A stretch of DNA of 64,000 nucleotides, from positions 128,050 through 192,049 of the forward strand of contig CBDATD010000002.1 in the NCBI GenBank assembly GCA_965199935.1. The letters run 5' to 3'. Numbering within the stretch: position 1 is the first letter of the stretch; each line of letters starts with the position of its first letter. Of the stretch, positions 39,617 through 62,783 are shown piece after piece. A model generated the notes under the pieces. That model made no database searches. It had not been told where the DNA came from and was given only the letters and a program-made list of their open reading frames with translations. A program made the translations under genes and the position numbers. The DNA comes from Bdellovibrionales bacterium (lineage in GTDB: Bacteria > Bdellovibrionota > Bdellovibrionia > Bdellovibrionales > UBA1609).

Positions 39617-39700
39617 TTACTTAGAATCATATATCAGTTGCTGCATATTGCAGTCAGAGCTGTCAAATTTTTCATCGGTTTCATGGTAAGGGCAGTCATC
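39617..39700 (-). pseudogene. remnant R1 of the 3' end of the 61401..62783 gene family (most diverged copy)
   Basis: The minus-strand translation is DDCPYHETDEKFDSSDCNMQQLIYDSK*. Compare GGDCPYYEADEILGNTNCNDFQDLDD in the intact gene. There is no start codon or upstream coding sequence. Confidence 0.55.
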
Positions 39701-39781
39701 TCACTTTCTCTTTCAAAAATAACCATATATTAGGTTATTTCAGAGATAAATTCTTTAATTTGATAAAATTCACATAGATTA

Positions 39782-39810
39782 TTGACAAACTACATATTTT
39801 TATGTAGTAT
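39782..39810 (+). promoter_or_regulatory. sigma-70-type promoter with embedded palindromic operator for the TA pair
   Basis: TTGACA (39782-39787), a 17-nt spacer, then TAGTAT (39805-39810), directly before the ATG at 39811. The inverted repeat CTACAT/ATGTAG spans the spacer and overlaps the -10 hexamer. Confidence 0.6.
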
Positions 39811-40165
39811 ATGTTGATGAATGATGTGGCAGTTAAAAAGATTGATTATTATGCGACGAGGGGAGGGAGAGAGCCGTTTTTAGAGTGGATAAATGGTTTA
39901 GATGTGAAAACACAAATTATCGTTGATCGTTGCATTCAGAGGGTTGTACAGGGTTGTACAGGGTGGTGCTAAAAAATCTATCAGAAATTTAAAGGATGGA
40001 GTATTTGAAATGAAAATTCCTTATGCAGGGGGATTAAGAGTTTATTTTGCAAAATATAAAAATGAGGGTATTCTTTTGTTGATCGGAGGAGATAAGGGTA
40101 CACAGCAGAAAGACATACGGAAGGCAAAAAAATATTGGAGGTGCTATTATGGCAAACAGACATAA
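39811..40165 (+). pseudogene. RelE/ParE-superfamily (Gp49/DUF891-like) toxin disrupted by a 10-bp tandem duplication
   Basis: The 5' part reads MLMNDVAVKKIDYYATRGGREPFLEWINGLDVKTQIIVDRCIQRVVQG. GGGTTGTACA is then duplicated (39941-39950 and 39951-39960) and shifts the frame. Deleting one copy joins it to GAKKSIRNLKDGVFEMKIPYAGGLRVYFAKYKNEGILLLIGGDKGTQQKDIRKAKKYW, which is track ORF 39923..40165. Confidence 0.7.
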
Positions 40166-40472
40166 AAGTTATGATGAAGTATTGGCGAAGAAATTTAAAA
40201 ATCTGAGGTACGCCCAAGGATATCTTATTCATATTCTTGAAAAAGAAAAGTTACCGGTAGAAAAAGCTCTTCGTGAGACAATTAAAGCTATGGGGCTCAA
40301 AGAATTCTCTAATAAATCTGGTTTGTCGATTCAGGCTGTCTCCGACTTTGTGGCTAAGAGGCAGAAGTGGAGTATTGACAAGCTTTCAATTTGCATTAAG
40401 AAGGTGTTTCGTTTAAAGATCAAGTTATCTCTTGAAATTCCTAAATCTATCAAATCCACCAAAGTCGCTTGA
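40149..40472 (+). CDS. HTH antitoxin partner (HigA/addiction-module antidote type)
   Basis: It overlaps the toxin 3' end by 17 nt. 107 aa. The pattern is YLIHILEKE...AIKAMGLKEFSNKSGLSIQAVSDFVAKRQ (HTH). Confidence 0.65.
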   Translation: MANRHKSYDEVLAKKFKNLRYAQGYLIHILEKEKLPVEKALRETIKAMGLKEFSNKSGLSIQAVSDFVAKRQKWSIDKLSICIKKVFRLKIKLSLEIPKSIKSTKVA

Positions 40473-40595
40473 ACTATTGTTTTTGCAGAGTTATTTTGCG
40501 TGGGAGTTTTTAAAGTTCTCATTCTCTTGATTGTCGAGTCGTTGGAGAGGTGTTTTCTGAGGCCGCCGAATATTTGGATTTATATTGTATATTTC

Positions 40596-40964
40596 TTAAA
40601 AACAAATCACAATCCTCCCTGCGGTGAAAAATAAAGTGGAAAATTTTGACCGCAAATAACTAACAAAAGCTTCAGCTACTTCCAAAGGTCCCCCAGGAGT
40701 ATGGAGAATCAAATCTAATTTAGAACCAGAAAGACCATGAATGACCTCCATAAGACCTTGTAAATCTTCATCAGAAATACTCAAAAAAGAAGGAGGTACA
40801 TCAGGTTTGGATGTCCAACAAGATGCATAAAGAATTGTATTGCGTTTTGTTAAATCAAAGACTGCTTTTAAATATTTACGACGAACAAAATCAAATGAAG
40901 ATTTGACACCCGGCTGTTGAGTAGTTTCGTGTAATTCTTTGAGAATTTCACTCCATGTTGGCAT
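40596..40964 (-). pseudogene. N-terminal fragment of an SDH-family Clp-fold serine proteinase
   Basis: The family N-terminus is present: MPTWSEILKEL...RRKYLKAVFDLTKRNTILYAS...DLILHTPGGPLEVAEAFVSYLRSKF. The ORF then ends after ~110 aa of an expected ~280. Confidence 0.55.
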
Positions 40965-40981
40965 TCAGTGTTTTACCTTTC

Positions 40982-41188
40982 TCAGAAAAATATAGGTTCT
41001 GATGAATCCGAATTAGTAACCTTATAGGCAGAATTGTTAATAACTTGATGGGCCTGTTCTGCTTCATGGCTTTCTTGCCAAAGGTTATAAACAGTCATCA
41101 TTTCTTTAACACCTGGTCGATCAAGAGACTTCTTTCTTAACTCAGCGTGTCTTTTTGCCCTATTCTTTGGTACATCATATTTCCCCAT
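40982..41188 (-). CDS. small hypothetical protein upstream of the protease fragment
   Basis: 68-aa ORF on the same strand, ending 18 nt upstream of the start of the protease fragment. No recognisable motif. Confidence 0.3.
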   Translation of the reverse strand: MGKYDVPKNRAKRHAELRKKSLDRPGVKEMMTVYNLWQESHEAEQAHQVINNSAYKVTNSDSSEPIFF

Positions 41189-41436
41189 AAATTCCCTTTT
41201 ACTTATGTAATCCCAGATCTAAATCTAAAAAACCCCTGAAATGGCTTTTTAATACGGAAATTTCACTTACAAATTGTCGGTATATCGCTTTGATATGTAA
41301 AAAGCAATAAAAAAAAGAGCTGAAAAATGTTTTAAAAACAGCTTAACAAAAAAACGTCCTAAAATCGAATTTTTTTAAATATCACTCCTATTTGCCATAA
41401 TAACAGGCCATTTTTAGATCAACACTTTGGACTTAG

Positions 41437-41849
41437 TTAGAGGAGTAATATATACCAGCTCTTATAATGCTCCTCTAGCCTCTTTAAACGATGGGATTTT
41501 GTAGTTAAATTATGTCTTAGCCAGACCCCTTTGACTCCTCCTTCACTAACCATATAGCCTTCCTGTTTTAACTCATTGGATACCCTTTGTTGACCTGCTA
41601 CAGGGTTTTGCAAAGAATAATCCAAATCCTTTGTTCAATTTCAAGACTCACTCTGTCAGATATTTTAGGCTTAGATTTCGACTTAGCTATTAGTCCTGAT
41701 AAACCCTCTTCTTTTAGAGTCCCTTTTATATCGTAGTAATGCTGGCGGCTGACTCCTAGTCTTCGGCAGGCTTCCGATATATTTCCCAAAACTTTTCCTA
41801 ATTCTACTATATTTGTTTTTCTATTTATAATATACTGCTCTTGTGTCAT
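41437..41849 (-). mobile_element. remnant of an rve-type (IS481/IS3-superfamily-like) transposase: N-terminal HTH region only
   Basis: Two overlapping frames are involved. The first reads MTQEQYIINRKTNIVELGKVLGNISEACRRLGVSRQHYYDIKGTLKEEGLSGLIAKSKSKPK. The second reads LQNPVAGQQRVSNELKQEGYMVSEGGVKGVWLRHNL...RLKRLEE. No DDE catalytic domain follows and no terminal inverted repeats were seen. Confidence 0.6.
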
Positions 41850-42141
41850 GGCTTTCTCCTTTAATTAAATTTACTAATTACTTCTTTTAATTTTAACTGA
41901 GAAAGCCCGGCCTTTTTTAGTCTGGGCTGGATTTTTAGATTGTAAACGCTTTTCTATACTAGCTCATATTATGACTTTGAAAAATGGAAAAGTGTATGCG
42001 GGGTCTTTGAGGAAATATCCAAACAATCCAAATCTAAAATATGAGCGCCAAACAATTTCTATTATTCCATCTTTTAGCGGGTACAGAGAACAAGAGCAAA
42101 AATGGGTTGAATGGGCCAGCTGCACATCACAGTTGAAGTTT

Positions 42142-43272
42142 TTATATTTTTAAGACTTCTTTGCAGAAAGTGATGAAGGGCAGGGAGCGGCCTTTGTTCT
42201 TTTCATCTCCAAAATCTTTTTTCATAAGATGCACTTGAAAGCACTTTGGGATAAGCAGTCTTTTTTGAAAATACCCCAGATGAGGAGATAAAGCTTTCTC
42301 ACCCGCTTTGCATTCCACTGCAAATAACGGGCGTTTATTTTTTAGGACTATAAAATCCACTTCTCTTTTGTCTGTGTCCCTCAAATATCTTAATTCCATT
42401 TTATCTCCGCGGGAGTCACAGCGGTAATGGCAGTATTTTAATAAATGACAAGCGACAAGATTTTCAAAGCGGTATCCCTTTGATTCTATTTGAGACCAGT
42501 CCCAAAAATAAAGTTTTTGCTCCTTTTTGACTGCCCTGATCTTTGAACGTCCAAAGGGGGGGATTAAAAACACAACATAAAGAGCTTCAAGCAGTTTTAA
42601 CCACCGAGCAATAGTTTGGTGGCTGACTTGTAAATCCTCTCTTATTGAGTTGATAGACAGAGGTGATCCTGATTTTTCAGGCAGAGACTCTAACAAGAGG
42701 TGAATCAATGAAACTTCTTTTACTTTTTCTAAATCTCTTAAATCCTCATTAATTACTTGGTGATTTCTATGGTTTTGCCATTTCTTCCAATGGCTGAGCG
42801 ATTGGCTGAATAGAGGTTCAGGAAATCCTCCAAACTTCATCAGTGTTTTTAAATCGCTGATGGAAGGGTTTTTGTTCAATTCTAAGAGAGAAAAAGGATG
42901 AAGCCGATAATGAAAATATCGACCCATCAAAGAGTCTCCCCCTTTTGAAAAGTAATCCAAACGCCCTGATCCTGTAACTACAAAGAAATGATTTGAGTGA
43001 TGTGCATCATAAAGTCCTTTCATGAAAGACCTCCATCTGGCGTATTTATGAATTTCATCAAAAATAATTATTTTATGTTTTAACGGGATTTCATTAATTA
43101 ATATTTTTTTTCTATGATCTGGAATATCCCAATTTAAGTAAGATGGATTTCTTGCTGCAGACGGCTTGATCAAACTAAGGCTGAGAGTGGTTTTTCCGAC
43201 TTGTCGGGGTCCGCTGATAAACACCATCTTCTTTTTCATATCTTTTTTAATATGGCTGGACAGGTATCGCAT
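42142..43272 (-). CDS. AAA+ ATPase of the AAA_14/DUF4143 type (paralog of 33952..35100)
   Basis: 376 aa. Features are Walker A SGPRQVGKTTL, Walker B IIIFDEIHKY, GSGRLDYFSKGGDSLMGRY, and the C-terminal REVDFIV...FAVECK. Confidence 0.8.
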   Translation of the reverse strand: MRYLSSHIKKDMKKKMVFISGPRQVGKTTLSLSLIKPSAARNPSYLNWDIPDHRKKILINEIPLKHKIIIFDEIHKYARWRSFMKGLYDAHHSNHFFVVTGSGRLDYFSKGGDSLMGRYFHYRLHPFSLLELNKNPSISDLKTLMKFGGFPEPLFSQSLSHWKKWQNHRNHQVINEDLRDLEKVKEVSLIHLLLESLPEKSGSPLSINSIREDLQVSHQTIARWLKLLEALYVVFLIPPFGRSKIRAVKKEQKLYFWDWSQIESKGYRFENLVACHLLKYCHYRCDSRGDKMELRYLRDTDKREVDFIVLKNKRPLFAVECKAGEKALSPHLGYFQKRLLIPKCFQVHLMKKDFGDEKNKGRSLPFITFCKEVLKI

Positions 43273-43332
43273 AGAATAGGCTCCTTTAAGCAGTTTTCTT
43301 GAATGTTAAAATATGATTATTTTAAGGTCAAG

Positions 43333-43377
43333 TTAAAAATACTCATGAGTATTCTAACATAGGATTAAAAATACTCA
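43333..43377 (-). promoter_or_regulatory. pair of direct repeats upstream of ATPase gene 42142..43272
   Basis: TTAAAAATACTCA occurs at 43333-43345 and 43365-43377, a 32-bp period. The first copy overlaps the palindrome ACTCATGAGT. On the gene strand a TTGAC follows the proximal copy. Confidence 0.45.
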
Positions 43378-43679
43378 CATGATTTGCAAGGAAGGCAAAA
43401 CTGAATTTTTTTACCAAATTTGCTGAAAATTTCATAAAAATAGACGAATTTTGTTAAGTATGATGTTTAATAGGTTTAAGATTTAGGCCGCATTTCCTCA
43501 GACACGCAGTCTATATTGTTTTATTCTGATTCAATTTGAAACGATATTACATTCCGTAATGTACGTTTAGTCCATTTTAATCTTATTATTTTCGATATGT
43601 GTCCGATAAGTCTGGTTAGACTGTAGCCCTCGAAGGGATACGGTTCAGATTAACCAGAAGAAAAAGTGGGATATGTCCA

Positions 43680-45125
43680 ATGACATTAGGTCAGTTGTTT
43701 CAAGAATTTCAGAATAATCCAATAGCTTTGATTATATTTTGTGTTTGTTCTTTATTTATATTCTATTATGCTTATTTGGAGGGGAGAAGCTTAAAAGCAG
43801 AAAGTTTTAAGGATTATAAATCTATTATTATCAGCATTGGTATATGCGGTACTTTCATAGGTATATTTATTAGTTTATTCTCCTTTGATCCTCAAAATAT
43901 TGAAAAAAGCGTACCTGAATTACTAGGTGGACTGAAATTAGCTTTTTCAACGTCTATTGTAGGTATGCTTTTCTCTATAATCTTATCTCATAGAGAGAAC
44001 TCTTTATCAAAATCTGAAAATCAATCCAATTCTTCAGAAAAAGATATTTTGAAATCTATTCTTGAGACAAATGTTGAAACCAACGGTGTTTTAACAAAAT
44101 TATCACAGAGCATAGAAAAATCTAATTTAAGGATGGTTAATCAATTAGTTTCCACTGAATCCTCTATTTCAAATTGTTTAAAACCCATTTTAGCTGAACA
44201 AAAAATGGCGAATAGTCTTTTCCTTGAGATTAAGAATAAAGTGGAGACCATAAATGACAATATGCTACAATCATCCGAGAATATAGATCAACACCTCAAC
44301 AAGGTTCAAAGGATGGTTAATCAATTAGTTTCCACTGAATCCTCTATTTCAAATTGTTTAAAACCCATTTTAGCTGAACAAAAAATGGCGAATAGTCTTT
44401 TCCTTGAGATTAAGAATAAAGTGGAGACCATAAATGACAATATGCTACAATCATCCGAGAATATAGATCAACACCTCAACAAGGTTCATACGTCATTAAA
44501 ACAGGCGTTAGAAGAATTATCTAAAGGAGCTTCTGAAGCTGTTGTTACTGCATTAAAACAGGTAATTACTGATTTTAATGACAACTTAACAGAGCAATTT
44601 GGAGACAATTTTAAACAGCTTAATGAAGCGGTTTATAAGATGATTAAATGGCAAGAGAATTATAAGGTGGCGATCACACAAGTGGAAGAGAATTTACAAA
44701 ATATACAAACTCAGATTGAGCAAAATTCCTCTTGGGTTGAAAGGTTTGCGGAAGATTATAAAAAAATCTCAAAAGTACATCAAGATTTAAGGGAAATTAT
44801 AGAAACAAATCAACATCAAATAGACGAATTAGAAAATGGACTAAGTAACCTTCACGAGGCTGGTCAAGGTGCTGATTTGTTAGTAAAATCGATGGAGAAC
44901 TTTTCATCAAAGATTAGGTCTTCCATAGAAGAGCAATCAACAGCATTAAATAATCAATCAGAGTCCCTTAGAACTCAATCAGATAATTTAAGAAAGGAAT
45001 TGGAAAGCTCTTTAGGAAATCTGAACACAGCCCTTGTGAGTTTGACCAATAAATTTAGAGAAGAGTATAAAGGCCTTCTTGAACAGCATAAGGAACTGCT
45101 TCTGAACTTCAAGAGATCAGCATAG
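43680..45125 (+). CDS. MotA/ExbB-like membrane protein with long coiled-coil tail (ZorA-like)
   Basis: The N-terminal TM helices include the MotA/ExbB-type pattern SIGICGTFIGIFISLF...LLGGLKLAFSTSIVGMLFSIIL. The remaining ~360 aa are heptad-rich, Q/E/N/L coiled-coil-like. It contains a perfect 60-codon tandem duplication. Confidence 0.7.
   Translation: MTLGQLFQEFQNNPIALIIFCVCSLFIFYYAYLEGRSLKAESFKDYKSIIISIGICGTFIGIFISLFSFDPQNIEKSVPELLGGLKLAFSTSIVGMLFSIILSHRENSLSKSENQSNSSEKDILKSILETNVETNGVLTKLSQSIEKSNLRMVNQLVSTESSISNCLKPILAEQKMANSLFLEIKNKVETINDNMLQSSENIDQHLNKVQRMVNQLVSTESSISNCLKPILAEQKMANSLFLEIKNKVETINDNMLQSSENIDQHLNKVHTSLKQALEELSKGASEAVVTALKQVITDFNDNLTEQFGDNFKQLNEAVYKMIKWQENYKVAITQVEENLQNIQTQIEQNSSWVERFAEDYKKISKVHQDLREIIETNQHQIDELENGLSNLHEAGQGADLLVKSMENFSSKIRSSIEEQSTALNNQSESLRTQSDNLRKELESSLGNLNTALVSLTNKFREEYKGLLEQHKELLLNFKRSA
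44131..44490 (+). repeat. perfect 2 x 180-bp in-frame tandem duplication inside the ZorA-like tail
   Basis: 44131-44310 and 44311-44490 are identical base for base except at the last 2-3 nt, the junction. Each copy encodes RMVNQLVSTESSISNCLKPILAEQKMANSLFLEIKNKVETINDNMLQSSENIDQHLNKV. Confidence 0.97.
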
Positions 45126-45134
45126 AGTGTTCAG

Positions 45135-45926
45135 ATGAAGGTAGATTTGACACAATTTGAAGAGCTTTTGGAAGCAGTAAAGAGTTTTGGTATTAGTGAT
45201 TTTTCAAAAATAAAAATTCAATTTGAAAGAGGTGAAGGGTTAGATGTAAATTTAGATGAGATTTTTCCTTCTTCAAGTGAAGAGCTTCTAACTATTTTAC
45301 CGGATGGGTCAGTTAGAAAATCTATCATCTATATTGTGGATATTTCTACATATTATGATGAGACACATAGTTATCCTAAGTTTCATATATATAATTGTAA
45401 GACGATAAAGTGGATGAGAGCTGGTGGGAGAGGACATAGATACAAAGCTTCTAGCAGAGTAGATGGGAAATTCATGCTGATCAAAAATGACAGAAAGTGG
45501 GAAGAAGAATTAAAAATATGTCTTAACTGTCTGAAACATTACAATGATCAATTTGTAAGTATTAAAACAAGAGAAAATTTTTCAATTAAAGAATATATCA
45601 AAAATCCAATAAAGAGTTCTGGATTTTTTGAAAGCTTTGATTTTTGTACTCTTCCAAATGTGTACGCTGAAAATTGGAAATCTATATCAGATTACGTAAA
45701 GAAGAGGTCACATTATAAATGTTCTAAATGCTGTAGGGATTTTTCAAACAAATCTTATAGAGAGTTTTTACACACTCACCACAAGGATGGAGATAAGACT
45801 AATAATACGTTTGGAAATCTAGTTTCTTTATGTATTGAATGCCACTCTCAAGAATATAATCATGGGCATATGAAAAATAGCTTTCAATACAAAAAATATT
45901 TAAAAACTAAAAAGAAGGTAGCATGA
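45135..45926 (+). CDS. HNH endonuclease-domain protein (ZorE-like position/function)
   Basis: The C-terminal HNH/His-Me finger is CSKCCRDF...LHTHHKDGDKTNNTFGNLVSLCIECHSQEYNH. The N-terminal ~190 aa are an unknown domain with PKFHIYNCKTIKWM...CLNCL. It starts 10 nt after the ZorA-like stop. Confidence 0.75.
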   Translation: MKVDLTQFEELLEAVKSFGISDFSKIKIQFERGEGLDVNLDEIFPSSSEELLTILPDGSVRKSIIYIVDISTYYDETHSYPKFHIYNCKTIKWMRAGGRGHRYKASSRVDGKFMLIKNDRKWEEELKICLNCLKHYNDQFVSIKTRENFSIKEYIKNPIKSSGFFESFDFCTLPNVYAENWKSISDYVKKRSHYKCSKCCRDFSNKSYREFLHTHHKDGDKTNNTFGNLVSLCIECHSQEYNHGHMKNSFQYKKYLKTKKKVA

Positions 45927-46675: not shown

Positions 46676-46732
46676 AACACAAACAAGGTATACTACAGAT
46701 GAGTTAGCTTTCCTCTGTGGTGAATGCGAGGG

Positions 46733-48347: not shown

Positions 48348-48392
48348 GCCAGAGTACCTGTTTTGTAAAATAGGGTTTTGTACTTCAGAAGA

Positions 48393-55521: not shown

Positions 55522-55600
55522 TAGAATATTTAGTAGGGGAAACTTAGAAATGAAAAAACATAAACATAAGTCAGGTGTACTACAGATGGGTTAGTATCTG

Positions 55601-55885: not shown

Positions 55886-55984
55886 AACTTTTAGAATGAA
55901 TAGAGATTCTCTAAGAAGAGTAATTAGATGTACATATTATTGGTATATTGAATAGTTGTAAAAGAACTAATAAATGCTTGCATT

Positions 55985-56854
55985 TTGTATTTTCACGTGG
56001 TAAATACCCTCTTTTATATGTGTGAGGTGGAAAGTTTGGTCAATTTTGAGGAAATACAAACGTCAGTGGATTGCGACTGCAAAAGAGTGACAGTTACGCA
56101 CACAAAATGTAAATATTCTCGCGAAGAAGATACTCAACCATTAGGGACATCTAAATGGAAAGGTGTGATTACATCACTAGTTACGTGTCTTTTCTTTAAA
56201 TTTGTTCCCATTTCAATTTTCGTTGTTATATGTTTCCCTCTTTCGGACTTTTCGGCAAAATTTGCAATTCTTTTTCCATTGTCCAATTGTTGTGTAGATA
56301 AGTTTGGTGAAGTAGATATGCATAGTTCAAAAATGTCTCAAAAAATAGCTAATTCGCATCAACTTAATAAACATACACCCACCGTTTCCAAGAAATCTGA
56401 ACCTCTGATGAAGGAGGCAAATGAAGCAAATCTTTTGATCAAAGCTATGAAGGATAGAGCTTATATAAAAGCTCGTACATTAATAATAGATGTCGGAGTT
56501 GATGTAAATTTTCAAGATAAGAGTGGAAACTCACCTCTACATATAGCCTCTTTTGATGGGAGCAGGGATATGATTGATTTGCTTCTGGACAATGAAGCGT
56601 CGATGGCTGTTCAAAATAATGAAGGAAATACCCCTTTACATATCCTTGCAAGAGAGGGGTACTATGAGATTATTTCTGAGTTGGGATTTTTAAATGAAGA
56701 AGATATGGAGTGTATTGCAAGTGTAAAAAATACTAAAGGGCATACAGCGTTGGATTTGGCTTATGCCAGTATGGTGAATGAAGAGTATTTTAAGAATTCT
56801 GTATTCGATGACTTATCGTCAATGAGATGTAGTGACATTGCACAATTGGAGTAA
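55985..56854 (+). CDS. ankyrin-repeat protein with hydrophobic N-terminal region
   Basis: The C-terminal half carries ANK units (GNSPLHIASFDGSRDMIDLLLDNEA, GNTPLHILAREGYYEII, GHTALDLA). The N-terminal part has TM-like segments (VITSLVTCLFFKFVPISIFVVICF). The start is uncertain (TTG at 55985, or the internal ATG at ~56319). Confidence 0.65.
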   Translation: MYFHVVNTLFYMCEVESLVNFEEIQTSVDCDCKRVTVTHTKCKYSREEDTQPLGTSKWKGVITSLVTCLFFKFVPISIFVVICFPLSDFSAKFAILFPLSNCCVDKFGEVDMHSSKMSQKIANSHQLNKHTPTVSKKSEPLMKEANEANLLIKAMKDRAYIKARTLIIDVGVDVNFQDKSGNSPLHIASFDGSRDMIDLLLDNEASMAVQNNEGNTPLHILAREGYYEIISELGFLNEEDMECIASVKNTKGHTALDLAYASMVNEEYFKNSVFDDLSSMRCSDIAQLE

Positions 56855-57165
56855 ACTACCGCTTCCTCCGGTGAAGTCTTCGTAGTCGAGATACAGGGGT
56901 GTTGAGAGCGGGGTTGCCTAGCTTCCGCTGCCAGAGCCGTCGTAATCGATACAAGGGTATCCACTGCATTGTGGGGCCAAAGGATGTACTTTACCGCTGT
57001 AATCATCTAAATCTTGAAAGTCATTGCAGTTCGTATTTCCTAATATTTCGTCAGCTTCGTAGTAGGGGCAGTCGCCTCCTTCTTCTCCGTCAAGGTCTGG
57101 ATCACCGCTTCGTCCGTCTGAATCTTGAAAGTTCAAAAATTCTTCTTTACTGGTGTGAAACCTAG
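56855..57165 (-). pseudogene. remnants R5a+R5b of the 3' end of the 61401..62783 gene family (best-preserved copy)
   Basis: R5b (56918-57165) on the minus strand reads KEEFLNFQDSDGRSGDPDLDGEEGGDCPYYEADEILGNTNCNDFQDLDDYSGKVHPLAPQCSGYPCIDYDGSGSGS*. About 150 bp of it are near-identical to 61470-61620. After its stop comes GCAACCCCGCTCTCAACACCCC and then a tail-only copy, R5a (56855-56917, ..YLDYEDFTGGSGS), which abuts the ankyrin gene stop. Confidence 0.85.
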
Positions 57166-57403
57166 TGAAATTTCGAAAAAATGTAAAGAGTTTCACATGA
57201 AAGATGAATTTGACAAGGATATTCAAAAATTAGGTAAAATCAATTTTAGAATAACGTTCCCTATGAGTATTAAAGATCGAAAATAATACATAGATTTTTT
57301 GTATGTAAATAATATATTTTTGAACTATGTTCTTGAGGAGGCACAAAGGGAATAAAGCACTAAGATCAAATCTGTATCTGATACTTCCAGAAGGAGAAAG
57401 CTT

Positions 57404-57910
57404 GTGAAAAGAATTAAAAAATTCAAAAGAAGAAAAACTTATTAGTCAATTCAAGAAAAAATTGTCATTAACTTCTTTTAAAGAAAACCAGAAAAACTTG
57501 TCTAATTATTTAGGTACAATGCTACTTTAAGAAAAATGAAAGGGAGGAGAGGGAGAGCAAGCCTATGCAGAAATTTGCACTCTTCTCAAATTAGGAACTC
57601 ACCATAAAACTTCACATCTGAAGTGGGCTGGTGACCAGCGGGATGGAAACGCTTTTGATGGGATACTGTATTTCGATCAAGACGAACAAAAAGTTGAAAT
57701 TTCTGCATCAATTAACCCGGAAGAAATAAAGGATTATAGAAAAAAGGATGGACATCGAGAGATGACAAAAAGTGTTGTACAATCAATGAAAAAACGAATT
57801 TTTCTGAAGATTTTCTTAGAAAGTATTGGACATCTTGCAAAAATCTAGAGAAGTTTCTTTTGAGGTATTCCCCAATTATAGTAGAAGATTTTGTATATAA
57901 ATTGAGGAGA
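57404..57910 (+). pseudogene. decayed paralog of gene 37615..38394
   Basis: Nucleotide similarity is evident from GAAAGCTTGTGAAAAG (compare GGAAGCTTGTGAGAAG at 37640) through ...ATAGTAGAAGATTTTGTATATAA. The frame from the GTG at 57404 stops after 13 codons, there are multiple indels, and the 3' third is missing. Confidence 0.7.
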
Positions 57911-57965
57911 GGAAAAAGTAGCTCATTTGAACTGTCTATTGATGGTTGCTGCTTTAGGGGCGTAA

Positions 57966-58634
57966 TCAGCTCTCTTTTGGTATCATTTTTAACTCTTTAA
58001 GAAGTTTTTCTTTTACTGCATCATAAACGAAGAATTGTCTTGATAATAGGTCTCTTTTCAAAAATTCCTTATCTTCTGGAATAACAGGAGAGATGTGTTT
58101 TTCAATATTTTGTTCCATTTTTTTGAAATTTAAAAAATCCAATCCAGAAATAGAAGACCATCGTATAAGAAATATAGCATTAAGAATAATTCTCTTATAA
58201 GCTGAGTAAAGTTTCCATACATCTTCTGATAAATAAGGTTCAATTTTATGCTCATTGAGTCCTTCTCTACATTCTTTTTCAATACTTTGAATTATTGGAC
58301 TGAGCCATCTTTCTGTTTCTTGGAAAGCATTTTTCAGTTTTATTTTGTTTGTCTCTTCCAGGGTTTCCCAGTTTTTCAATTTTTTAAAATTCAAATTCTG
58401 CAACCATCCACAAATAGATTCTCCTTGAGAGAAAGTCTTTATATTTTTGTTTATTTGTTCTATGGCATTTAATCTTTTTTTCTTAAGAAGGATATTTTCA
58501 TTCTCTTTGATTCTAATGTTTGATTTGTCCTCTTCTAATTCTTTTTTAAATTTTTGTTCCACATATTTTTTGAGAAACCAACCAAAAGCTGATCCTATTG
58601 TAAAGATTAAAGACATAATTAGTTTTTCAAGCAT
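57966..58634 (-). CDS. hypothetical N-terminally membrane-anchored protein
   Basis: 222 aa with an N-terminal TM (LIMSLIFTIGSAFGWFL). The rest is charged and helical. No recognisable motif. Confidence 0.45.
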   Translation of the reverse strand: MLEKLIMSLIFTIGSAFGWFLKKYVEQKFKKELEEDKSNIRIKENENILLKKKRLNAIEQINKNIKTFSQGESICGWLQNLNFKKLKNWETLEETNKIKLKNAFQETERWLSPIIQSIEKECREGLNEHKIEPYLSEDVWKLYSAYKRIILNAIFLIRWSSISGLDFLNFKKMEQNIEKHISPVIPEDKEFLKRDLLSRQFFVYDAVKEKLLKELKMIPKES

Positions 58635-58895
58635 AAATTTCCGTTCTCAGTTAATTTTAGAGATATTGTATTTGTCGATGGAATATACTCTACTTGCTCC
58701 CTTCATGCCAAGAGCCAAAATGAAAAGAATACTGGCTGTAGTTATGCATCTCTCTAGGAGACACATCATTCTCTCAGCATAAAAATAGTTACTCACATAT
58801 TACATAGTTCTTTTTTTTTGTTGGCAGTATTTAGCTGTAATCAGGGGAAATGTTCCTTTTTTTCTACGAATTAGACGCTCGATAATTGTCGAATT

Positions 58896-58932
58896 CTGGA
58901 CTATAGAGGAAAATTTTAGTAAAATACAGAAA
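58896..58932 (+). promoter_or_regulatory. conserved promoter-like module (copy 2), upstream of gene 58955
   Basis: CTGGACTATAGAGGAAAATTTTAGTAAAATACAGAAA contains TGGACT, a 17-nt spacer, then TAAAAT. It has 2 mismatches to 49209-49245. Confidence 0.5.
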
Positions 58933-58954
58933 TGTAGCCCTTTTAGGAGTTTCT

Positions 58955-59785
58955 GTGGATTCTACACTATTAATTTCAATATTTGCTTTAGGGATGACCG
59001 TGCTTGCTTTTGTAATGGCAGTAGTTACTCTCTGTTTGCAGTGCAGGGGAAATAAAATTGCTAACGATGTAAACAAACAGTCAGAGAAAATTTCAAAACA
59101 TCAAGATCGTATAGAATTTTTCCAAAAAAAGAATCATGTTATAGGTCAGGTTAAAAATTTAGAGCTTTCTGAAGAAAGTTCTATCAAACTTGTAAACGAT
59201 ATAGAGTTTATATTTGAAAATAGATTCAGTCATATAGTGGTTAAAGATACAGAAGGCTCATTTCCTGAACTTTCTATGAGTAGTTGTGGAAGTGCAGATG
59301 AAGCAGACAATTGGATTAATCAATTAAAAGAAAAAATCATTAAAATTCATCTAATAAAAGAAGGAGAAAGATCTTATGCTCTTCCTTCTGTGTCAGAGGA
59401 TTTTGAAAGGAAAGAAGGTTTAGAAATGGGTCAAATAAAAGGCTTAGAAGATGAGCATTATTATTGGAAGAATAGCCAAATCACATACATTCCTGGATTT
59501 TTATTTGTTATAGAGAAAATAGGATATAAAGGTAGGAACAGCGTAGAATCAAAAAATGAGCGTGATGAAAGTATTGAGCTTAAACATCGGTTTTTTAAGA
59601 AAGCTACTTTAGATACAGAGGAGAGATATGTTTTGTATGTATCTAAAGCAGGGAAAGACTTTAGATGGATAATTTATGATTTTCCTAATCATGAAAGTGT
59701 GAGAGTAGAGGTTAAATTTGTTAATCCAAATAGATTAGAAGAACACGCAAATGCCTTAAAAGCATTCCTTGAGTGGGGACACTAG
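58955..59785 (+). CDS. hypothetical N-terminally membrane-anchored protein
   Basis: GTG start with an N-terminal TM (LLISIFALGMTVLAFVMAVVTLCL). 276 aa with no recognisable motif. Its last codons (..EWGH*) lie inside the repeat motif, and its stop shares a CTAG with remnant R6. Confidence 0.45.
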   Translation: MDSTLLISIFALGMTVLAFVMAVVTLCLQCRGNKIANDVNKQSEKISKHQDRIEFFQKKNHVIGQVKNLELSEESSIKLVNDIEFIFENRFSHIVVKDTEGSFPELSMSSCGSADEADNWINQLKEKIIKIHLIKEGERSYALPSVSEDFERKEGLEMGQIKGLEDEHYYWKNSQITYIPGFLFVIEKIGYKGRNSVESKNERDESIELKHRFFKKATLDTEERYVLYVSKAGKDFRWIIYDFPNHESVRVEVKFVNPNRLEEHANALKAFLEWGH

Positions 59786-59870
59786 CTTCCGCCGGCGGAG
59801 CCTTCGTAGTTGAAAGGGGTATCCACTGCATTGTGGGGCTATAAGCTACTGTTCTTTAAAGTCACTGCCT
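59782..59870 (-). repeat. remnant R6 of the 61401..62783 3'-end repeat
   Basis: The minus strand reads ..PHNAVDTPFNYEGSAGGS* (stop at 59782-59784). The segment GGGGTATCCACTGCATTGTGGGGC matches R5b and R2. Sequence downstream of the stop (TGTCCCCACTCA) matches the post-stop motif. Confidence 0.6.
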
Positions 59871-59932
59871 CAAATGACTAATAAAAATTAGGTTATTGGA
59901 ATTGGTGATCGAAATAAAGGACAGAGAACAGA

Positions 59933-61123
59933 TCATCTATATTCGTATTGTGAGACGGTACATTGAAGTCTTTGTATTAAGTCATCATAAGTAATTATAT
60001 CAATAATGTTTTTATATTTTCTTTTAATAATTTCAAAATCTTCTTTTTGTTCTAAGTTTAAGTTATTACTTCTACCTAAAACAATCATTGCTCCAGGATT
60101 GGTAATTTTTATTTGACAATTATTTGGCAAATTGTTATTATATTTCTTGTTTAAATAGTCCTCTCCTCGTTTTCCCCATTTGTTTAGATGTAAGATATAT
60201 TTTTCCACTTGCATCACAGTTCCTGAGAGTTCTTTCACTGGACAATAATTTCCCCTGTAATTTGGATTGTCTGGAACAATTTGGTGATCTAAAGGTCTTT
60301 TTATTTCTAAAATATCAATATATCCTTCTGAATCGACCAATAAATAATCTAATTCTCTTTTTTTATTTTCTGTGTAGGAGTCTTTTATTTTGACTTTTTG
60401 GAAAACTTTTATATATTTTGGAAAAATTAAAAGTAATATCTCGATAATTTCTTCTTGCCATTGCTTTTCGTTATAATGGTCTTCTTTACTAAGCATATTT
60501 TTTAATTTTTTTAAAATGACTGAATATTTATCTTTTTCATAATTTCTAAAATTATCTAGTAAATTGAAACCTTGAACACTCTTTTTTTTATTCATATATT
60601 TCTCATATTTATCTTTCACATCTACTCTTGTACTTTCAAAATACTTTGTTAAAATTACGGATAACCTTAATTCACAATATTTTTTCTTTTCTGTTGTATT
60701 TGGAAATTGCTTTAATAAGTCTTTAAAACCTTCGTGAGAAATTGAACTTTTATTAGCTCCTCCTAAAAAAAATGATTCACTAATCAAATTGTCAATATGT
60801 TTAAAAATGGAAATCGTGTAATTTGTCACAAAATATTTTTTCTCTAGTTTAATATCTTTATAGATGTAAAGATTATTAGTAATACCCAAGATTTCTTTAT
60901 TTATTTTATAATATCCTTTCTCAAGTACTCCAAACTTAAATTTATAATCAAGATATTCTGATGTTTTAAATTTTTTAACTAGATTATGCTTTGTAAGATG
61001 AAAGGTCTTATCAAAGCAGACACCTTCATTATTTCGAAATTTATCATTTAGCCAAGTAGGCTCATCATCTGGTAAATATTCTAATATTAAAATATTATTA
61101 TTTTTTACAAATTTGATCATCAT
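59933..61123 (-). CDS. Shedu-like (SduA/DUF4263) PD-(D/E)XK nuclease-domain protein (tentative)
   Basis: 396 aa. The C-terminal third contains RELDYLLVDSEGYIDILEIKRP...QVEKY, matching the D...(E/Q)xK core and spacing I associate with DUF4263. It is a single-gene cassette. Confidence 0.6.
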   Translation of the reverse strand: MMIKFVKNNNILILEYLPDDEPTWLNDKFRNNEGVCFDKTFHLTKHNLVKKFKTSEYLDYKFKFGVLEKGYYKINKEILGITNNLYIYKDIKLEKKYFVTNYTISIFKHIDNLISESFFLGGANKSSISHEGFKDLLKQFPNTTEKKKYCELRLSVILTKYFESTRVDVKDKYEKYMNKKKSVQGFNLLDNFRNYEKDKYSVILKKLKNMLSKEDHYNEKQWQEEIIEILLLIFPKYIKVFQKVKIKDSYTENKKRELDYLLVDSEGYIDILEIKRPLDHQIVPDNPNYRGNYCPVKELSGTVMQVEKYILHLNKWGKRGEDYLNKKYNNNLPNNCQIKITNPGAMIVLGRSNNLNLEQKEDFEIIKRKYKNIIDIITYDDLIQRLQCTVSQYEYR

Positions 61124-61319
61124 ATTTTATTATGAACATACTATGTCAACATTTTCAATGGTTCAAATGTCCTTGCGGGATTACAAAAAAATTACCCTCT
61201 GGATCAGAAACAGGAGTTTTTAGGATTAATGTATTGGATAATATTGTTTTTACAGGTGAGGCGATACGCAAAATGAGAGGGATGGTGAGTACCTGGAGGA
61301 ATCACCCTTCCCGTCGTAG

Positions 61320-61400
61320 TTAATACGGGGGTGTGAGTGGGAACATTAATCGCCGGCGGAGCCTTCGTAGTTGATGCAGGGGTGTGAGGGTGGGGTTCGC
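61320..61400 (-). repeat. remnants R7: tandem tail-lets directly downstream of the intact gene's stop
   Basis: The minus strand after the stop (TAG, 61401-61403) reads GCGAACCCCACCCTCACACC, then CCTGCATCAACTACGAAGGCTCCGCCGGCGATTAA (PCINYEGSAGD*), then TGTTCCCACTCACACCCCCG, then TATTAACTACGACGG. These are repeated units of tail, stop and post-stop motif. Confidence 0.7.
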
Positions 61401-62783
61401 CTAGTTACCTCCGCCTCCGCCGCCTGAGTTTTCATAATCAACCTTTGGATACGAATTCAAGGTATTGAAGTCATCTAAATCTTGAAAGTCATTGCAGTTC
61501 GTATTTCCTAATATTTCATCGGCTTCATAATAGGGGCAGTCACCGCCTTCTTCTCCGTCAAGGTCTGGATCACCGCTTCGTCCGTCTGAATCTTTAAAGT
61601 TCAAAAATTCTTCCTTTGTATTCCATTCTCGAATCATTAGATGTGTTCTATGTAGAGCATCAAAGTTTGAATCTAAGCATTCCAAAGTAAAATATGGATA
61701 TCCTATTGGCAGATGTACTTGTGGTGAGTTCTCATCTTTTCGAGATTCATCTGGAAAAAACATTAGTGGGCAATCAGGACAAGAATATGAATTAGTTCTT
61801 TGATTTTCTCCTGGAAAAAATCCTGGTGGGTTGTCTGTAAAAATTAAATCCTCAATACCATCAAAGTAATTGACAGTAGGAGTGCTTTTATTCACAAAAC
61901 GATCTTGAAATATTGGACCCACCATAAAAGTTTCTCGTCTTCCCCGAGTCCAAGAAGAAAACACTTGCGGTATAGGGTATTCTATTTCCAGTTTATAATC
62001 ATTTATGAAAGCGAGGGTGACATTCCTTTGTGCAGGCCAATCAGAGGATCGGACTGGACCTCCAATGCAGTTGCTAAGCTCTCCTCCCCATTCTTTTTCT
62101 GCGGTATCCGATTCGTTTTCTACTGTACAATCATCAACACTCCCAGTAGTACTTTTATATTGAGTAGTTTCGGCCATACCAAAGCAACAATTGCTTAAAC
62201 CTGACTCAGACAGATCATAATCACAACTTTCCTCTTGGTCTTCTTCTTGTAAGATCCATCCTGTACCTGTTGATCTGATCCACGTTTCTTCCTCAAAAGT
62301 TTCTGAATCTTCATTTGTGACTTTACATTCATCTACTGAAAGTGGCCCTATTCCAGAACGTTGATTCCAATGCCAGGGGGCCATGAAGGTAGTGTATTCA
62401 CACATCTCTCTAGGGACGTTGTATTGTATGGGGATTCCCTCTTCTGCCTGCCCCAATACGCCAATATCCGCCTCATTCAAATCTAAAATGCAGTACAAGT
62501 CCTCCACAGACTCCGTGTTTTTGTCTATACCGCAGTCAATGAGGCCGATGGTGTCGTTAGAACTCAGCTCATACAAAGGGACAGCAAGCCCTTGTCCTTC
62601 GTAGTGACCTGTATCGAATTTAATATAAAAACGATCGTCAATATCCTCACTGGTTAGCTCAGAGAAAACATCTATCGTGGGAACGCAGGACAGGCAGAAA
62701 TAAAATATAAAGAAATAGATTCCCGCTTTTATAGATTTTAAAGACACTTCTATATGTTCTCCTGTTATCCGTGAAACGTACAC
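61401..62783 (-). CDS. secreted/lipoprotein-like Cys- and Asp/Glu-rich protein, unknown function (intact source of the R1-R7 repeats)
   Basis: 460 aa. It has an N-terminal hydrophobic segment with a lipobox-like FCLSC and many Cys residues. The acidic C-terminal module is KEEFLNFKDSDGRSGDPDLDGEEGGDCPYYEADEILGNTNCNDFQDLDDFNTLNSYPKVDYENSGGGGGGN. The start codon choice is uncertain. Confidence 0.6.
   Translation of the reverse strand: MYVSRITGEHIEVSLKSIKAGIYFFIFYFCLSCVPTIDVFSELTSEDIDDRFYIKFDTGHYEGQGLAVPLYELSSNDTIGLIDCGIDKNTESVEDLYCILDLNEADIGVLGQAEEGIPIQYNVPREMCEYTTFMAPWHWNQRSGIGPLSVDECKVTNEDSETFEEETWIRSTGTGWILQEEDQEESCDYDLSESGLSNCCFGMAETTQYKSTTGSVDDCTVENESDTAEKEWGGELSNCIGGPVRSSDWPAQRNVTLAFINDYKLEIEYPIPQVFSSWTRGRRETFMVGPIFQDRFVNKSTPTVNYFDGIEDLIFTDNPPGFFPGENQRTNSYSCPDCPLMFFPDESRKDENSPQVHLPIGYPYFTLECLDSNFDALHRTHLMIREWNTKEEFLNFKDSDGRSGDPDLDGEEGGDCPYYEADEILGNTNCNDFQDLDDFNTLNSYPKVDYENSGGGGGGN

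What the first reader, a model, noticed from the sequence alone, without database searches (positions are those of the whole stretch)
39617..62783. Six unrelated gene cassettes are separated by decaying copies of the 3' end of a single gene
Seen in sequence. The last ~80 codons of the intact minus-strand gene 61401..62783, its stop codon and a ~20-nt post-stop motif (minus strand GCGAACCCCAC(T/C)CACACCCC) recur at least seven more times, always in the same orientation:
- R7 61320-61400
- R6 59782-59870
- R5 56855-57165
- R4 55601-55885
- R3 49111-49195
- R2 46733-46850
- R1 39617-39700

The copies sit exactly at the borders between functionally unrelated blocks:
- R7|R6: the Shedu-like gene
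- R6|R5: two membrane-anchored hypotheticals plus a pseudogene
- R5|R4: an ankyrin gene
- R4|R3: the TIR, ANK and Hsp70 operon
- R3|R2: the DUF4145/DUF4209-like pair
- R2|R1: the TA pair, IS/protease debris, an ATPase and the Zorya-like trio

Similarity to the intact gene falls with distance. R5 is near-identical over ~150 bp and R1 is barely recognisable. Several junctions fall precisely on stop codons: a shared CTAG at 59782-59785, and the ankyrin gene stop at 56852-56854, which is directly abutted by R5a.

Inference. This is the footprint expected if mobile cassettes repeatedly integrated into the 3' end of this gene, each bringing or regenerating a replacement 3' end. That is the pattern seen in tRNA-targeting islands, with older insertions pushed outward. 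No integrase or recombinase is visible in the window, so the mechanism is unexplained. The only recombination-associated gene nearby is the Rpn-like nuclease next to R1.
Basis: partly seen in the sequence, partly recalled or inferred. Interest (0 to 1): 0.85.

Follow-up and report, generated by a model that had tools for sequence, protein, structure and literature searches.

The report
Defence cassettes between displaced gene ends
A 27-kb anti-phage defence island in an uncultured Bdellovibrio-like bacterium is punctuated by left-over copies of the end of one neighbouring gene, which suggests the island grew by repeated insertion of "gene end plus defence genes" segments without any visible integrase.

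Summary
The last 0.07-0.3 kb of the minus-strand gene 61401-62783 recurs at six further sites, always co-oriented: R7, R6, R5, R4, R2 and R1. The gene encodes a lipoprotein-like protein of an uncultured 'Bdellovibrionales' lineage. R3 is not statistically supported. Only 3' ends recur.

The copies bound anti-phage cassettes: Shedu, ankyrin, a TIR-Hsp70 operon, PD-T7-4/PDC-S39 and Zorya II.

R4 and R5 start at the same codon (K389) and keep open reading frames. Their C-terminal tails resemble those of other lineages' orthologues. They differ from the live gene mostly at synonymous sites (7:1 for R5). So they were once working gene ends from diverged relatives, not decaying local duplicates.

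Three relatives have an empty site, two carry other cargo there, and one has the same Zorya operon directly after its live gene.

There is no tRNA in the 64 kb, and no integrase or recombinase domain in the ORFs and gaps scanned.

Best reading: incoming 'gene end + cargo' segments serially displaced the gene end, probably by homologous recombination, as with Rhs orphan arrays. The main rival is an unlinked site-specific recombinase, as in CIME-like accretion. This is a new variant of a known kind, of moderate interest.

The parts
61401..62783 (-). Target gene. It encodes a 460-aa ORF (the database product is 448 aa). The protein is Cys-rich and lipoprotein-like and belongs to a small family of 27 proteins. 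Its C-terminus is conserved: REWNT-KEEFLxFxDSDGRSGDPDxxGEEGxDCxYYExDE..CNDFxDLDD-(variable linker)-YPxxxYxxGG.
   Evidence: No Pfam or NCBIfam family matches.
61466..61617 (-). Conserved 150-nt block of the live gene, running from codon K389 to DLDD. This is the part repeated in R5, R4 and R1. The homology of both R4 and R5 begins at codon K389 (61616-61614).
   Evidence: D3, D6; sequence reading.
61280..61405 (-). R7: two short tail remnants directly after the stop codon (..HPCINYEGSAGD* and ..HPRINYDGKGD..). Each starts at CCCCAC/CCCAC.
   Evidence: nhmmer E 1e-7 and 7e-7.
59933..61123 (-). Shedu nuclease gene sduA. It is the only gene of the first cassette.
   Evidence: Pfam SduA_C 2.5e-33; PADLOC SduA 8e-144.
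59770..59840 (-). R6: a tail remnant (APQCSGYP / NYEGSAGGS*). It is a chimera. The first 23 nt are identical to R5, and the next 24 nt are identical to the first post-stop mini-tail of the gene.
   Evidence: E 3.5e-10; D8, D15.
57152..59769 (.). Second cassette. It holds a 276-aa membrane-anchored ORF at 58955-59785 (+), whose stop lies inside R6; a 222-aa ORF at 57966-58634 (-); and a pseudogene at 57372-57898 (+), which is a copy of gene 37615-38394.
   Evidence: (D2, D5).
56844..57151 (-). R5 plus R5a. R5 is an open 88-codon copy of the gene end with a different tail (..DDYSGKVHPLAPQCSGYPCIDYDGSGSGS*). It is followed by a second mini-tail that abuts the ankyrin gene stop at 56852-56854.
55985..56854 (+). 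Ankyrin-repeat gene. It is the only gene of the third cassette.
   Evidence: Pfam Ank_2 8e-14.
55553..55890 (-). R4 plus R4a plus a flanking block. R4 is an open 86-codon copy with a third tail type (..FLSISDIIQSQLGDRFRLYLPYPHIDYDGGGS*). It is followed by a mini-tail and then a 42-nt block (CTAACCCATCTGTAGTACACCTG..) that is shared with the R2 flank.
   Evidence: D19.
49334..55521 (+). Fourth cassette: an operon encoding a TIR (ThsB-like) protein, an ankyrin protein, a GrpE-like protein, Hsp70, a TerB-domain protein and an M48 peptidase.
49111..49195 (-). R3: the claimed remnant (IDYDEN* plus a CCCACT..TCAACCGCAACA stretch). Homology is not established.
   Evidence: 28 of 500 shuffles reach the score; not detected; weak 69% member of repeat family D10.
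46851..48971 (-). Fifth cassette: a DUF4145 gene (PADLOC PD-T7-4) and a DUF4209 gene (PADLOC PDC-S39).
46665..46855 (-). R2 plus a flanking block. R2 is a 35-codon remnant (SCSDCNDFSDLDDYSGKVHPLAPQCSGYPCINFNRNENQ*) of the R5 tail type. It is followed by the same flanking block seen after R4.
   Evidence: D7, D19.
43531..46677 (+). Zorya type II operon (zorA, zorE, zorB). The same operon, 80-82% identical, directly follows the live gene in relative L020.
39717..43530 (.). Mixed block with no remnant inside it. It holds a DUF4143/AAA_14 ATPase at 42142-43272 (-), debris with the helix-turn-helix domains of a transposase N-terminus (read by eye as IS481-like) at about 41.5-42.1 kb, a protease-like fragment at 40596-40964 (-), a HigA-like gene at 40149-40472 (+) and a HigB/Gp49-like pseudogene.
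39647..39716 (-). R1: a decayed remnant of the conserved block (DCPYHETDEKFDSSDCN).
   Evidence: 0 of 500 shuffles; D6.
33952..39609 (+). Distal, low-GC part of the island with no detectable remnant. It holds two DUF4143 ATPases, an HTH gene, an unknown gene at 37615-38394 and an Rpn-family nuclease gene at 38557-39609.
62966..63889 (+). Lipase_3 gene, the conserved core neighbour. In the relatives it lies just downstream of the target gene. Here it lies upstream of it and is divergently transcribed.

Best explanation
The island grew by serial displacement of the gene's 3' end.

DNA segments came from related lineages. Each consisted of the last ~0.3 kb of that lineage's copy of the gene, followed by one defence cassette. 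Each segment recombined with the resident gene inside the conserved 150-nt block (K389..DLDD). The incoming end became the working end of the gene. The previous end, together with everything behind it, was pushed downstream as a dead copy. Repetition gave the array.

The recombination is most likely homologous (RecA-type). One route is a single crossover of a circularised segment. The other is a double crossover in which an existing remnant serves as the second anchor. No cassette-borne integrase is involved.

- **Shown:** the remnants, their orientation, their former functionality, their foreign origin, the empty and differently filled sites in relatives, and the failure to find any recombinase in the ORFs and gaps scanned.
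- **Inferred:** the order of events and the enzyme.
For: 1. Only 3' ends recur, always co-oriented and downstream of the live gene.
2. R5 and R4 are uninterrupted reading frames through their own stop codons. R5 differs from the gene by 7 synonymous changes and 1 non-synonymous change (dN/dS 0.03). R4 has dN/dS 0.17. A local duplicate decaying in place is rejected (P about 0.001 for R5 and 0.03 for R4).
3. The locus holds three different tail types, and each resembles the tails of other lineages' orthologues. The R4 tail resembles P0006, the R5/R2/R6 tails resemble P0012/P0016, and the live tail resembles P0002/P0003.
4. The gene, R5 and R4 each carry the composite of tail, stop codon, GCGAA and an older mini-tail. 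So the incoming pieces were copies of a chromosomal locus that was already scarred, not a minimal attP.
5. In L020 the Zorya operon directly follows the live gene. Here it follows R2, with a shared flanking block.
6. The site is empty in L001/L002, L016 and L018/L019. L004 has Fic-type cargo there and no recombinase.
7. No integrase, resolvase or tRNA was found in the window or in the L020 and L004 inserts. Cassette genes abut the remnants within 0-30 nt, so the cassettes were probably always small.
8. R6 is a chimera of two tail types joined at an arbitrary point (D8 and D15). L020 has five tandem mini-tails. Both are signs of homology-driven exchange among the copies.
9. The conserved block offers perfect matches of 50 and 57 nt between the gene and R5.
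Against: - R4 and R5 begin at exactly the same codon, next to unrelated cargo. That is what a fixed crossover site of a site-specific recombinase would give. The homologous model has to assume that the boundary is inherited from one founding event.
- No donor molecule or circle has been seen.
- No close strain was available, so no insertion is caught in the act.
- The gene-R5 differences are not significantly clustered (P 0.2), so there is no mosaic signature.
- Only ORFs of at least 100 aa and the larger gaps were scanned for recombinase domains.
- The rest of the 449-kb contig and of the genome was not available.
- The TIR gene shared with L020 lies distal to Zorya there and proximal to it here.
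Confidence: 0.45

Rival explanations
1. Integrase-free cassettes are moved by an unlinked site-specific recombinase. Each cassette is a small mobilisable unit whose attachment site is the gene end. A recombinase encoded elsewhere, either a host enzyme or one from another element, cuts at a core at K389, and perhaps at a second core at CCCCAC. It inserts circles at the live gene, much as integron cassettes or cis-mobilisable elements are inserted.
For: - R4 and R5 share an identical 5' boundary next to unrelated cargo.
- Several mini-tails start at CCCCAC, directly after a stop codon plus GC(G)AA.
- The cassettes are single systems with tight borders.
- The motif ACCTAATWTWT occurs 25-70 nt upstream of R1, R5 and R6. 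These are 3 of the 4 hits in the window, against 0.4 expected.
- The clade does have tyrosine-integrase islands that carry Shedu: L022, next to tRNA-Pro.
Against: - No recombinase was found in the 64 kb, or in the inserts of L020 and L004.
- The gene end was not found on any viral contig or metagenome contig.
- The repeats are long (150-330 nt) and diverged rather than a short identical core.
- R2, R6 and R1 do not share the K389 boundary.
- The composite of tail plus older mini-tail travels with each copy.
- R6 is recombinant at an arbitrary point.
Confidence: 0.3
2. Classical tandem accretion of full integrative elements. Each element had its own integrase and targeted the gene's 3' end. Each later decayed to its defence cargo plus its att sites, giving an array of CIMEs (cis-mobilisable elements).
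For: The pattern matches the accretion scheme described for ICE/IME/CIME tandems (PMC5704250) and for tycheposon islands with scattered partial tRNAs (10.1101/2020.12.28.424599).
Against: - Six cassettes of 1-6 kb would each have had to lose the integrase and all backbone genes while keeping borders within 0-30 nt of the remnants.
- No integrase fragment survives anywhere in the six-frame reading.
- The occupied sites in L020 and L004 also lack one.
Confidence: 0.1
3. The long remnants are kept as silent cassettes for varying the C-terminal tail of a surface lipoprotein by gene conversion. The 5' anchor would be the conserved block and the 3' anchor the post-stop motif. The defence genes would merely have lodged between the cassettes.
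For: - The gene, R5 and R4 all have the same layout: conserved block, variable linker and tail, then a conserved post-stop segment.
- The frames are intact and dN/dS is low.
- The tail is the most variable part of the family.
Against: - R1, R2 and R6 are truncated and decaying.
- The copies are kilobases apart.
- Three relatives have no silent copy.
- The low dN/dS is equally explained by recent import.
Confidence: 0.07
4. The remnants are the decay products of a tandem family of full-length paralogues.
For: One distant relative (OZ241325.1) has six dispersed paralogues, two of them about 18 kb apart.
Against: - tblastn with the whole protein finds no fragment other than 3' ends.
- R4 and R5 start at the same codon.
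- The closest relatives have a single copy.
Confidence: 0.03
5. The array is an assembly artefact: alternative strain paths downstream of one gene were concatenated in a metagenome assembly.
For: The window comes from a metagenome-assembled genome, and the repeats flank variable content.
Against: - The copies differ in length, in sequence (74-94% identity) and in truncation point, and they have unique junctions.
- An independent assembly (L020) also shows tail arrays and the tail-Zorya junction.
Confidence: 0.03

Closest known systems
Orphan modules downstream of rhs and cdiA genes (displaced C-terminal fragments)
   Same: A full-length main gene is followed by co-oriented fragments that begin in a conserved coding region and carry alternative C-termini. 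The fragments look like displaced ends of full-length genes. Homologous recombination between the main gene and an orphan occurs over a few hundred nearly identical base pairs (PMC3967940).
   Different: Here the variable end is a 20-40 residue tail, not a toxin domain. The linked cargo is anti-phage systems of 1-6 kb in either orientation, not an immunity gene. The gene is not an Rhs or CdiA protein (no Pfam match).
Tandem accretion of integrative elements and cis-mobilisable elements (CIMEs) at the 3' end of a target gene
   Same: [quoted passage not shown] Older units that have lost their integrase remain, flanked by att copies (PMC5704250).
   Different: No unit here has an integrase or any backbone gene. 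The units are single defence systems. The repeats are 150-330 nt of diverged coding sequence rather than a short core.
Tycheposon-built islands of Prochlorococcus
   Same: Incoming elements push earlier ones further into the island. Partial copies of the target are scattered through the island. Cargo behaves as plug-in cassettes (10.1101/2020.12.28.424599).
   Different: Those elements target tRNA genes and carry tyrosine recombinases, and fragmented integrases remain in the islands. Here the target is a protein-coding gene, and there is no tRNA and no integrase.
Integron cassette arrays
   Same: Small cassettes without a recombinase lie in a row, each delimited by a co-oriented recombination-site copy, next to a fixed platform.
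   Different: There is no intI next to the array. The cassette genes are in both orientations and have their own promoters. The repeat is a gene end, not an attC hairpin (the fold was not tested).
Defence hotspots between conserved core genes
   Same: A fixed chromosomal position between core genes is empty in some genomes and filled with different defence systems in others.
   Different: Here the hotspot keeps a readable record of successive events, in the form of displaced gene ends.

Membership tests
Site-specific accretion array (ICE/IME/CIME type) | [quoted passage not shown] | tested here: met
   Co-oriented gene-end copies lie at six borders.
Site-specific accretion array (ICE/IME/CIME type) | A tyrosine or serine recombinase, or its remains, in at least one unit | tested here: not met
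   Pfam scans of all ORFs of at least 100 aa in the island and of most longer ORFs in the core, plus six-frame reading and a six-frame Pfam scan of the larger gaps, found none. The L020 and L004 inserts also have none.
Site-specific accretion array (ICE/IME/CIME type) | A fixed crossover position (a common core at the repeat boundary) | tested here: inconclusive
   R4 and R5 share the K389 boundary. R2, R6 and R1 do not.
Rhs/CdiA orphan array | A main gene followed by co-oriented 3' fragments that start in conserved sequence and end in alternative C-termini | tested here: met
Rhs/CdiA orphan array | The variable C-terminus is a toxin domain paired with an immunity gene, and the main protein has Rhs/YD or CdiA repeats | tested here: not met
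   The gene has no Pfam or NCBIfam family. The tails are 20-40 residues. The cargo consists of Shedu, Zorya, TIR and similar systems.
Integron | An intI integrase and attI at the head of the array | tested here: not met
   The genes flanking the head of the array are the lipoprotein-like gene and Lipase_3.
Integron | attC hairpin sites between the cassettes | not tested
   The remnants were not folded. They are coding-sequence copies with no obvious palindrome on reading.
tRNA/tmRNA-targeting island (including tycheposons) | A tRNA or tmRNA gene at the island border, with partial copies inside the island | tested here: not met
   ARAGORN found none in the window. Rfam found none.
Defence island / hotspot | Several known defence systems clustered at a position that varies between related genomes | tested here: met
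   PADLOC matches SduA, ZorA2/ZorE2/ZorB2, ThsB-like TIR, PD-T7-4, PDC-S39 and PDC-S01. The site is empty or differently filled in relatives.

The most novel reading that the evidence does not exclude
The end of an ordinary protein-coding gene serves as a reusable docking site. Single defence systems are captured, stacked and exchanged between lineages there without any linked recombinase. Each capture swaps the protein's own C-terminal tail. If this is general, it would give a concrete mechanism for the many defence hotspots that show no mobile-element genes. The intact remnants might double as a reservoir of alternative tails for the lipoprotein-like protein.
Probability: 0.2. Interest if true: 0.75.

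Novelty: new variant of a known kind. Interest (0 to 1): 0.5.

Why it matters
Many defence islands sit at fixed hotspots with no integrase or transposase, and how they are filled is unclear. This locus keeps a stratified record of at least six successive events. The displaced gene ends were once functional and came from diverged lineages. That points to exchange of 'anchor gene end plus cargo' segments between relatives as a way to build such islands. The idea is directly testable with strain-resolved long reads from the same habitat. The work also defines a hotspot (lipoprotein-like gene / lipase) in a poorly known clade of small-genome Bdellovibrio-like bacteria.

Tried and rejected
- **Other collections searched for the gene or its end.** Among 14 species-representative genome loci, none has extra remnants within 10 kb. 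JGI metagenome contigs gave nothing, either with the whole family or with the C-terminal-only alignment. Viral contigs gave nothing with the C-terminal alignment.
- **Contig look-ups that failed.** The source contig (P0001), the closest complete relative (P0005, and its Shedu protein P0029) and P0012 are not on record. So the adjacency of Shedu and the gene in that relative could not be checked.
- **Tail profile.** An nhmmer profile of the tail found no hidden copies and did not recover R3.
- **Mosaic test.** Clustering of the gene-R5 differences is not significant (P 0.2), so no mosaic claim is made.
- **Shedu as a travelling cassette.** Homologues in L021 and L022/L023 lie at other loci. Their homology to the window is confined to the ORF, and no gene-end copy is nearby.
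- **TIR as evidence of cassette shuffling.** Only the ORF is shared with L020 and the flanks are unrelated, so it is weak evidence.
- **Left border of the island.** No remnant and no trace of the relatives' upstream neighbour (the ACR_tran operon) was found there.
- **dif/Xer-like site, and R1 sharing the K389 boundary.** Both were considered from reading the sequence, and neither could be established.

Full report
**Setting**

The window has a core of about 42-45% GC and a low-GC stretch (about 28-38%) from about 34 kb to 61.4 kb. The core region 1-33 kb holds housekeeping genes: sigma-54, SAM synthetase, citrate synthase, H+-pyrophosphatase, Mur ligase, TsaD and others.

The low-GC stretch holds known defence genes. 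These are Shedu SduA, Zorya type II (ZorA2/ZorE2/ZorB2), a ThsB-like TIR protein, PD-T7-4 (DUF4145), PDC-S39 (DUF4209) and three PDC-S01 ATPases (DUF4143). There is also an Rpn-family nuclease gene, toxin-antitoxin debris and debris with a transposase-type helix-turn-helix N-terminus (read as IS481-like).

Relatives of the target gene come from metagenome-assembled 'Bdellovibrionales' genomes of 1.3-2 Mb.

**The target gene**

ORF 61401-62783 (minus strand) encodes a Cys-rich protein with an N-terminal hydrophobic segment ending in a conserved Cys, so it looks like a lipoprotein (inference). It matches no Pfam or NCBIfam family. It belongs to a family of only 27 database proteins.

The family's most conserved part is the C-terminal stretch REWNT-KEEFLxFxDSDGRSGDPDxxGEEGxDCxYYExDE..CNDFxDLDD. 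After it come a linker of very variable length and a short end, YPxxxYxxGG.

Yes for six of the seven sites.

- blastn of the gene end against the window gives R5 (146 nt, 94.5%, E 1e-61) and R4 (147 nt, 83.7%, E 9e-40). It gives shorter hits at R6, R2 and R1.
- Using each copy as a query links R2 to the R5 tail (83 nt, 94%). It links R6 to both R5 and the post-stop region.
- tblastn with the whole protein finds only C-terminal matches, all on the minus strand. No other part of the gene recurs.
- A 14-nt tail motif has 7 hits, all on the minus strand and all at remnants, against 1.5 expected.
- A profile of the tail finds thirteen units in the window and in relative L020, and nothing elsewhere.
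- R1 is significant: 0 of 500 dinucleotide shuffles reach its alignment scores against the conserved block.
- R3 is not significant: 28 of 500 shuffles reach its score. I treat R3 as unproven.

**Anatomy of the copies**

Translation of the copies shows that R5 and R4 are uninterrupted reading frames of 88 and 86 codons. Both run from codon K389 through their own stop codon.

Both begin homology at the same codon, K389. Immediately upstream of it, each has unrelated sequence.

Their tails differ from the live tail and from each other.

| Copy | Tail |
|---|---|
| Live gene | FNTLNSYPKVDYENSGGGGGGN |
| R5, R2, R6 | YSGKVHPLAPQCSGYPCIDYDGSGSGS type |
| R4 | FLSISDIIQSQLGDRFRLYLPYPHIDYDGGGS |

Each type resembles the tails of different orthologues in the family alignment.

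The gene, R5 and R4 all carry the same composite: tail, stop codon, GC(G)AA, then the older mini-tail.

R4 and R2 additionally share a 42-nt block behind the tail (D19). This block is weakly recognisable in L020.

R6 is a chimera. Its first 23 nt are identical to R5. The next 24 nt are identical to the gene's first post-stop mini-tail (D8 and D15).

**The remnants were once working gene ends**

Over the 48 alignable codons of the conserved block:

- The gene and R5 differ by 7 synonymous changes and 1 non-synonymous change (dS 0.33, dN/dS 0.03).
- The gene and R4 have dS 0.66 and dN/dS 0.17.
- The gene and the L020 orthologue have dS about 1.6 and dN/dS 0.07.

Suppose a copy had been duplicated in place and had then drifted. 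About 70% of the differences should then be non-synonymous. That model is rejected for R5 (P about 0.001) and weakly for R4 (P about 0.03).

So the divergence arose while these sequences were parts of functional genes in lineages separated by dS 0.3-0.7. They arrived here, or were displaced here, recently relative to that divergence.

**Relatives**

- **Empty site.** In L001/L002, L016 and L018/L019 the order is RND transporter, target gene, then Lipase_3. The gene product is 57-62% identical to the one here. The spacer between the gene and the lipase gene is 157-434 nt, with a single tail.
- **Other cargo.** In L004 about 3.3 kb lies between the gene and the lipase gene. It encodes a Fic protein and two unknown proteins, and no recombinase.
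- **Shared cargo.** In L020, one of the closest relatives, the gene is followed by five tandem mini-tails. Directly after them comes a Zorya II operon that is 80-82% identical to window 43531-46677. Three unknown genes follow, then a TIR gene 77% identical to window 49300-50172.

In L020, therefore, Zorya holds the first position behind the live gene. In the window it sits behind remnant R2, with five cassettes between it and the gene. This is what serial insertion next to the live gene predicts.

The cassette identities (77-82%) are similar to that of the gene itself (about 77%). So at least Zorya is old at this locus.

The TIR gene lies on the other side of Zorya in L020. However, only its ORF is shared, so it says little about cassette order.

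**No recombinase**

- No tRNA or tmRNA was found, and no Rfam family.
- Pfam scans covered all ORFs of at least 100 aa in 26-64 kb and most longer ORFs in 1-26 kb.
- Six-frame reading of the gaps, plus a six-frame Pfam scan of the larger gaps, found only helix-turn-helix debris of the transposase N-terminal type and a Gp49-like pseudogene.
- Cassette genes end or start within 0-30 nt of the remnants. The ankyrin gene stop abuts R5a. The stop of the 276-aa ORF lies inside R6. The DUF4209 gene stop is 3 nt from R2.

Decay of six large integrase-bearing elements to exactly their defence gene plus intact borders is therefore unlikely.

**Mechanism**

Everything fits serial displacement of the gene end. 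A segment made of another lineage's gene end plus a cassette recombines with the resident gene within the conserved block. The incoming end takes over, and the old end is left behind the new cargo.

Which enzyme does this is not shown. I favour homologous recombination for five reasons:

- No recombinase was found at three occupied loci.
- The shared sequence is long and diverged rather than a short core.
- Each copy brings along an older scar, so the donors were chromosomal loci of relatives.
- R6 is recombinant at an arbitrary point.
- L020 shows tandem amplification of tails.

Rhs orphan arrays are a precedent. There, main and orphan fragments share a few hundred nearly identical base pairs and recombine (PMC3967940).

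The main rival is a site-specific recombinase encoded elsewhere. Its best support is the identical K389 boundary of R4 and R5. Under homologous exchange this boundary must be inherited from a single founding event.

Accretion of elements at a gene end, with integrase-less units left behind, is a described process (PMC5704250). So is pushing older units into an island (tycheposons).

**Other rivals**

- A decayed tandem paralogue family is disfavoured, because only 3' ends survive and close relatives have one copy.
- An assembly artefact is disfavoured, because the copies are unequal and L020 is an independent assembly.
- A silent-cassette system for tail variation is not excluded for R4 and R5. 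It does not explain the truncated copies.

**Limits**

- No close strain and no complete close relative could be read.
- The gene end was not found in viral or JGI metagenome collections.
- The island continues to about 33.95 kb without remnants.
- The target gene lies head-to-head with the lipase gene here but in tandem with it in relatives. So the gene plus the island has been inverted or moved, and the left border does not match the relatives' upstream neighbour.
- Shedu homologues in the clade sit at other loci, one of them in a tRNA-Pro integrase island. Their homology to the window is confined to the ORF. So gene-level movement by other routes also occurs.

**Verdict**

The insertion-with-replacement reading is supported. 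The integrase-type mechanism is not shown and is, on balance, less likely than homology-driven exchange. This is a new variant of known accretion and orphan-array patterns, of moderate interest.

Noticed in passing
window 49334-55521 (+): An operon encodes a ThsB-like TIR protein, an ankyrin protein, a GrpE-like protein, an Hsp70 family ATPase, a TerB-domain protein and an M48 peptidase. The Hsp70 protein has no PADLOC match. The operon may be an undescribed chaperone-based defence system.
   Followed up: partly
window 44129-44488 (+), inside zorA: A perfect 180-nt in-frame tandem duplication (44129-44308 and 44309-44488, 100% identical) adds 60 residues to the ZorA tail. The L020 orthologue lacks it (421 aa against 481 aa).
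   Followed up: partly
window 39386-39529 and 35108-35174: The Rpn-family nuclease gene carries nine 12-nt tandem repeats encoding (GRQE)n. A 67-nt fragment that is 75% identical to an inner part of this gene lies just after the ATPase gene, at 35108-35174.
   Followed up: no
window 37615-38394 and 57372-57898 (+): An unknown 259-aa gene in the distal island has a pseudogene copy (80% nt, 65% aa, with stop codons) next to R5.
   Followed up: partly
window 49202-49245 and 58889-58932 (+): A 44-nt repeat (91% identical) lies upstream of the TIR gene and of the 276-aa membrane-protein gene. It overlaps a promoter-like match (TGGACT-17-TAAAAT).
   Followed up: no
window 39725-39735, 57225-57235, 59883-59893 (-): The motif ACCTAATWTWT occurs 25-70 nt upstream of R1, R5 and R6. 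These are 3 of its 4 hits in the window, against 0.4 expected. Its meaning is unknown.
   Followed up: partly
window 61401-63889, compared with L001, L004, L016 and L018: The target gene and the Lipase_3 gene are head-to-head here but in tandem (gene then lipase) in four relatives. Only about 86 nt upstream of the gene (62795-62880) are conserved. The gene plus the island appears inverted or relocated.
   Followed up: partly
L020 3464-3866: Five tandem copies of the last ~15 codons plus the stop codon follow the live gene. Alternate copies are nearly identical, which indicates local amplification of the tail.
   Followed up: partly
L022 10001-15103: A Shedu homologue (64% aa) lies in an island that also has Replic_Relax, an HTH_17 excisionase-like gene and a tyrosine integrase next to tRNA-Pro. 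Classical integrase islands carrying the same defence gene therefore exist in the clade.
   Followed up: partly
L016 12393-13495, L018 12570-13665, L004 15522-16629: A SocA/Panacea-domain toxin-antitoxin pair is inserted between the lipase gene and the rRNA adenine dimethylase gene in three relatives. It is absent in L001. This is a second small variable spot next to the same locus.
   Followed up: no
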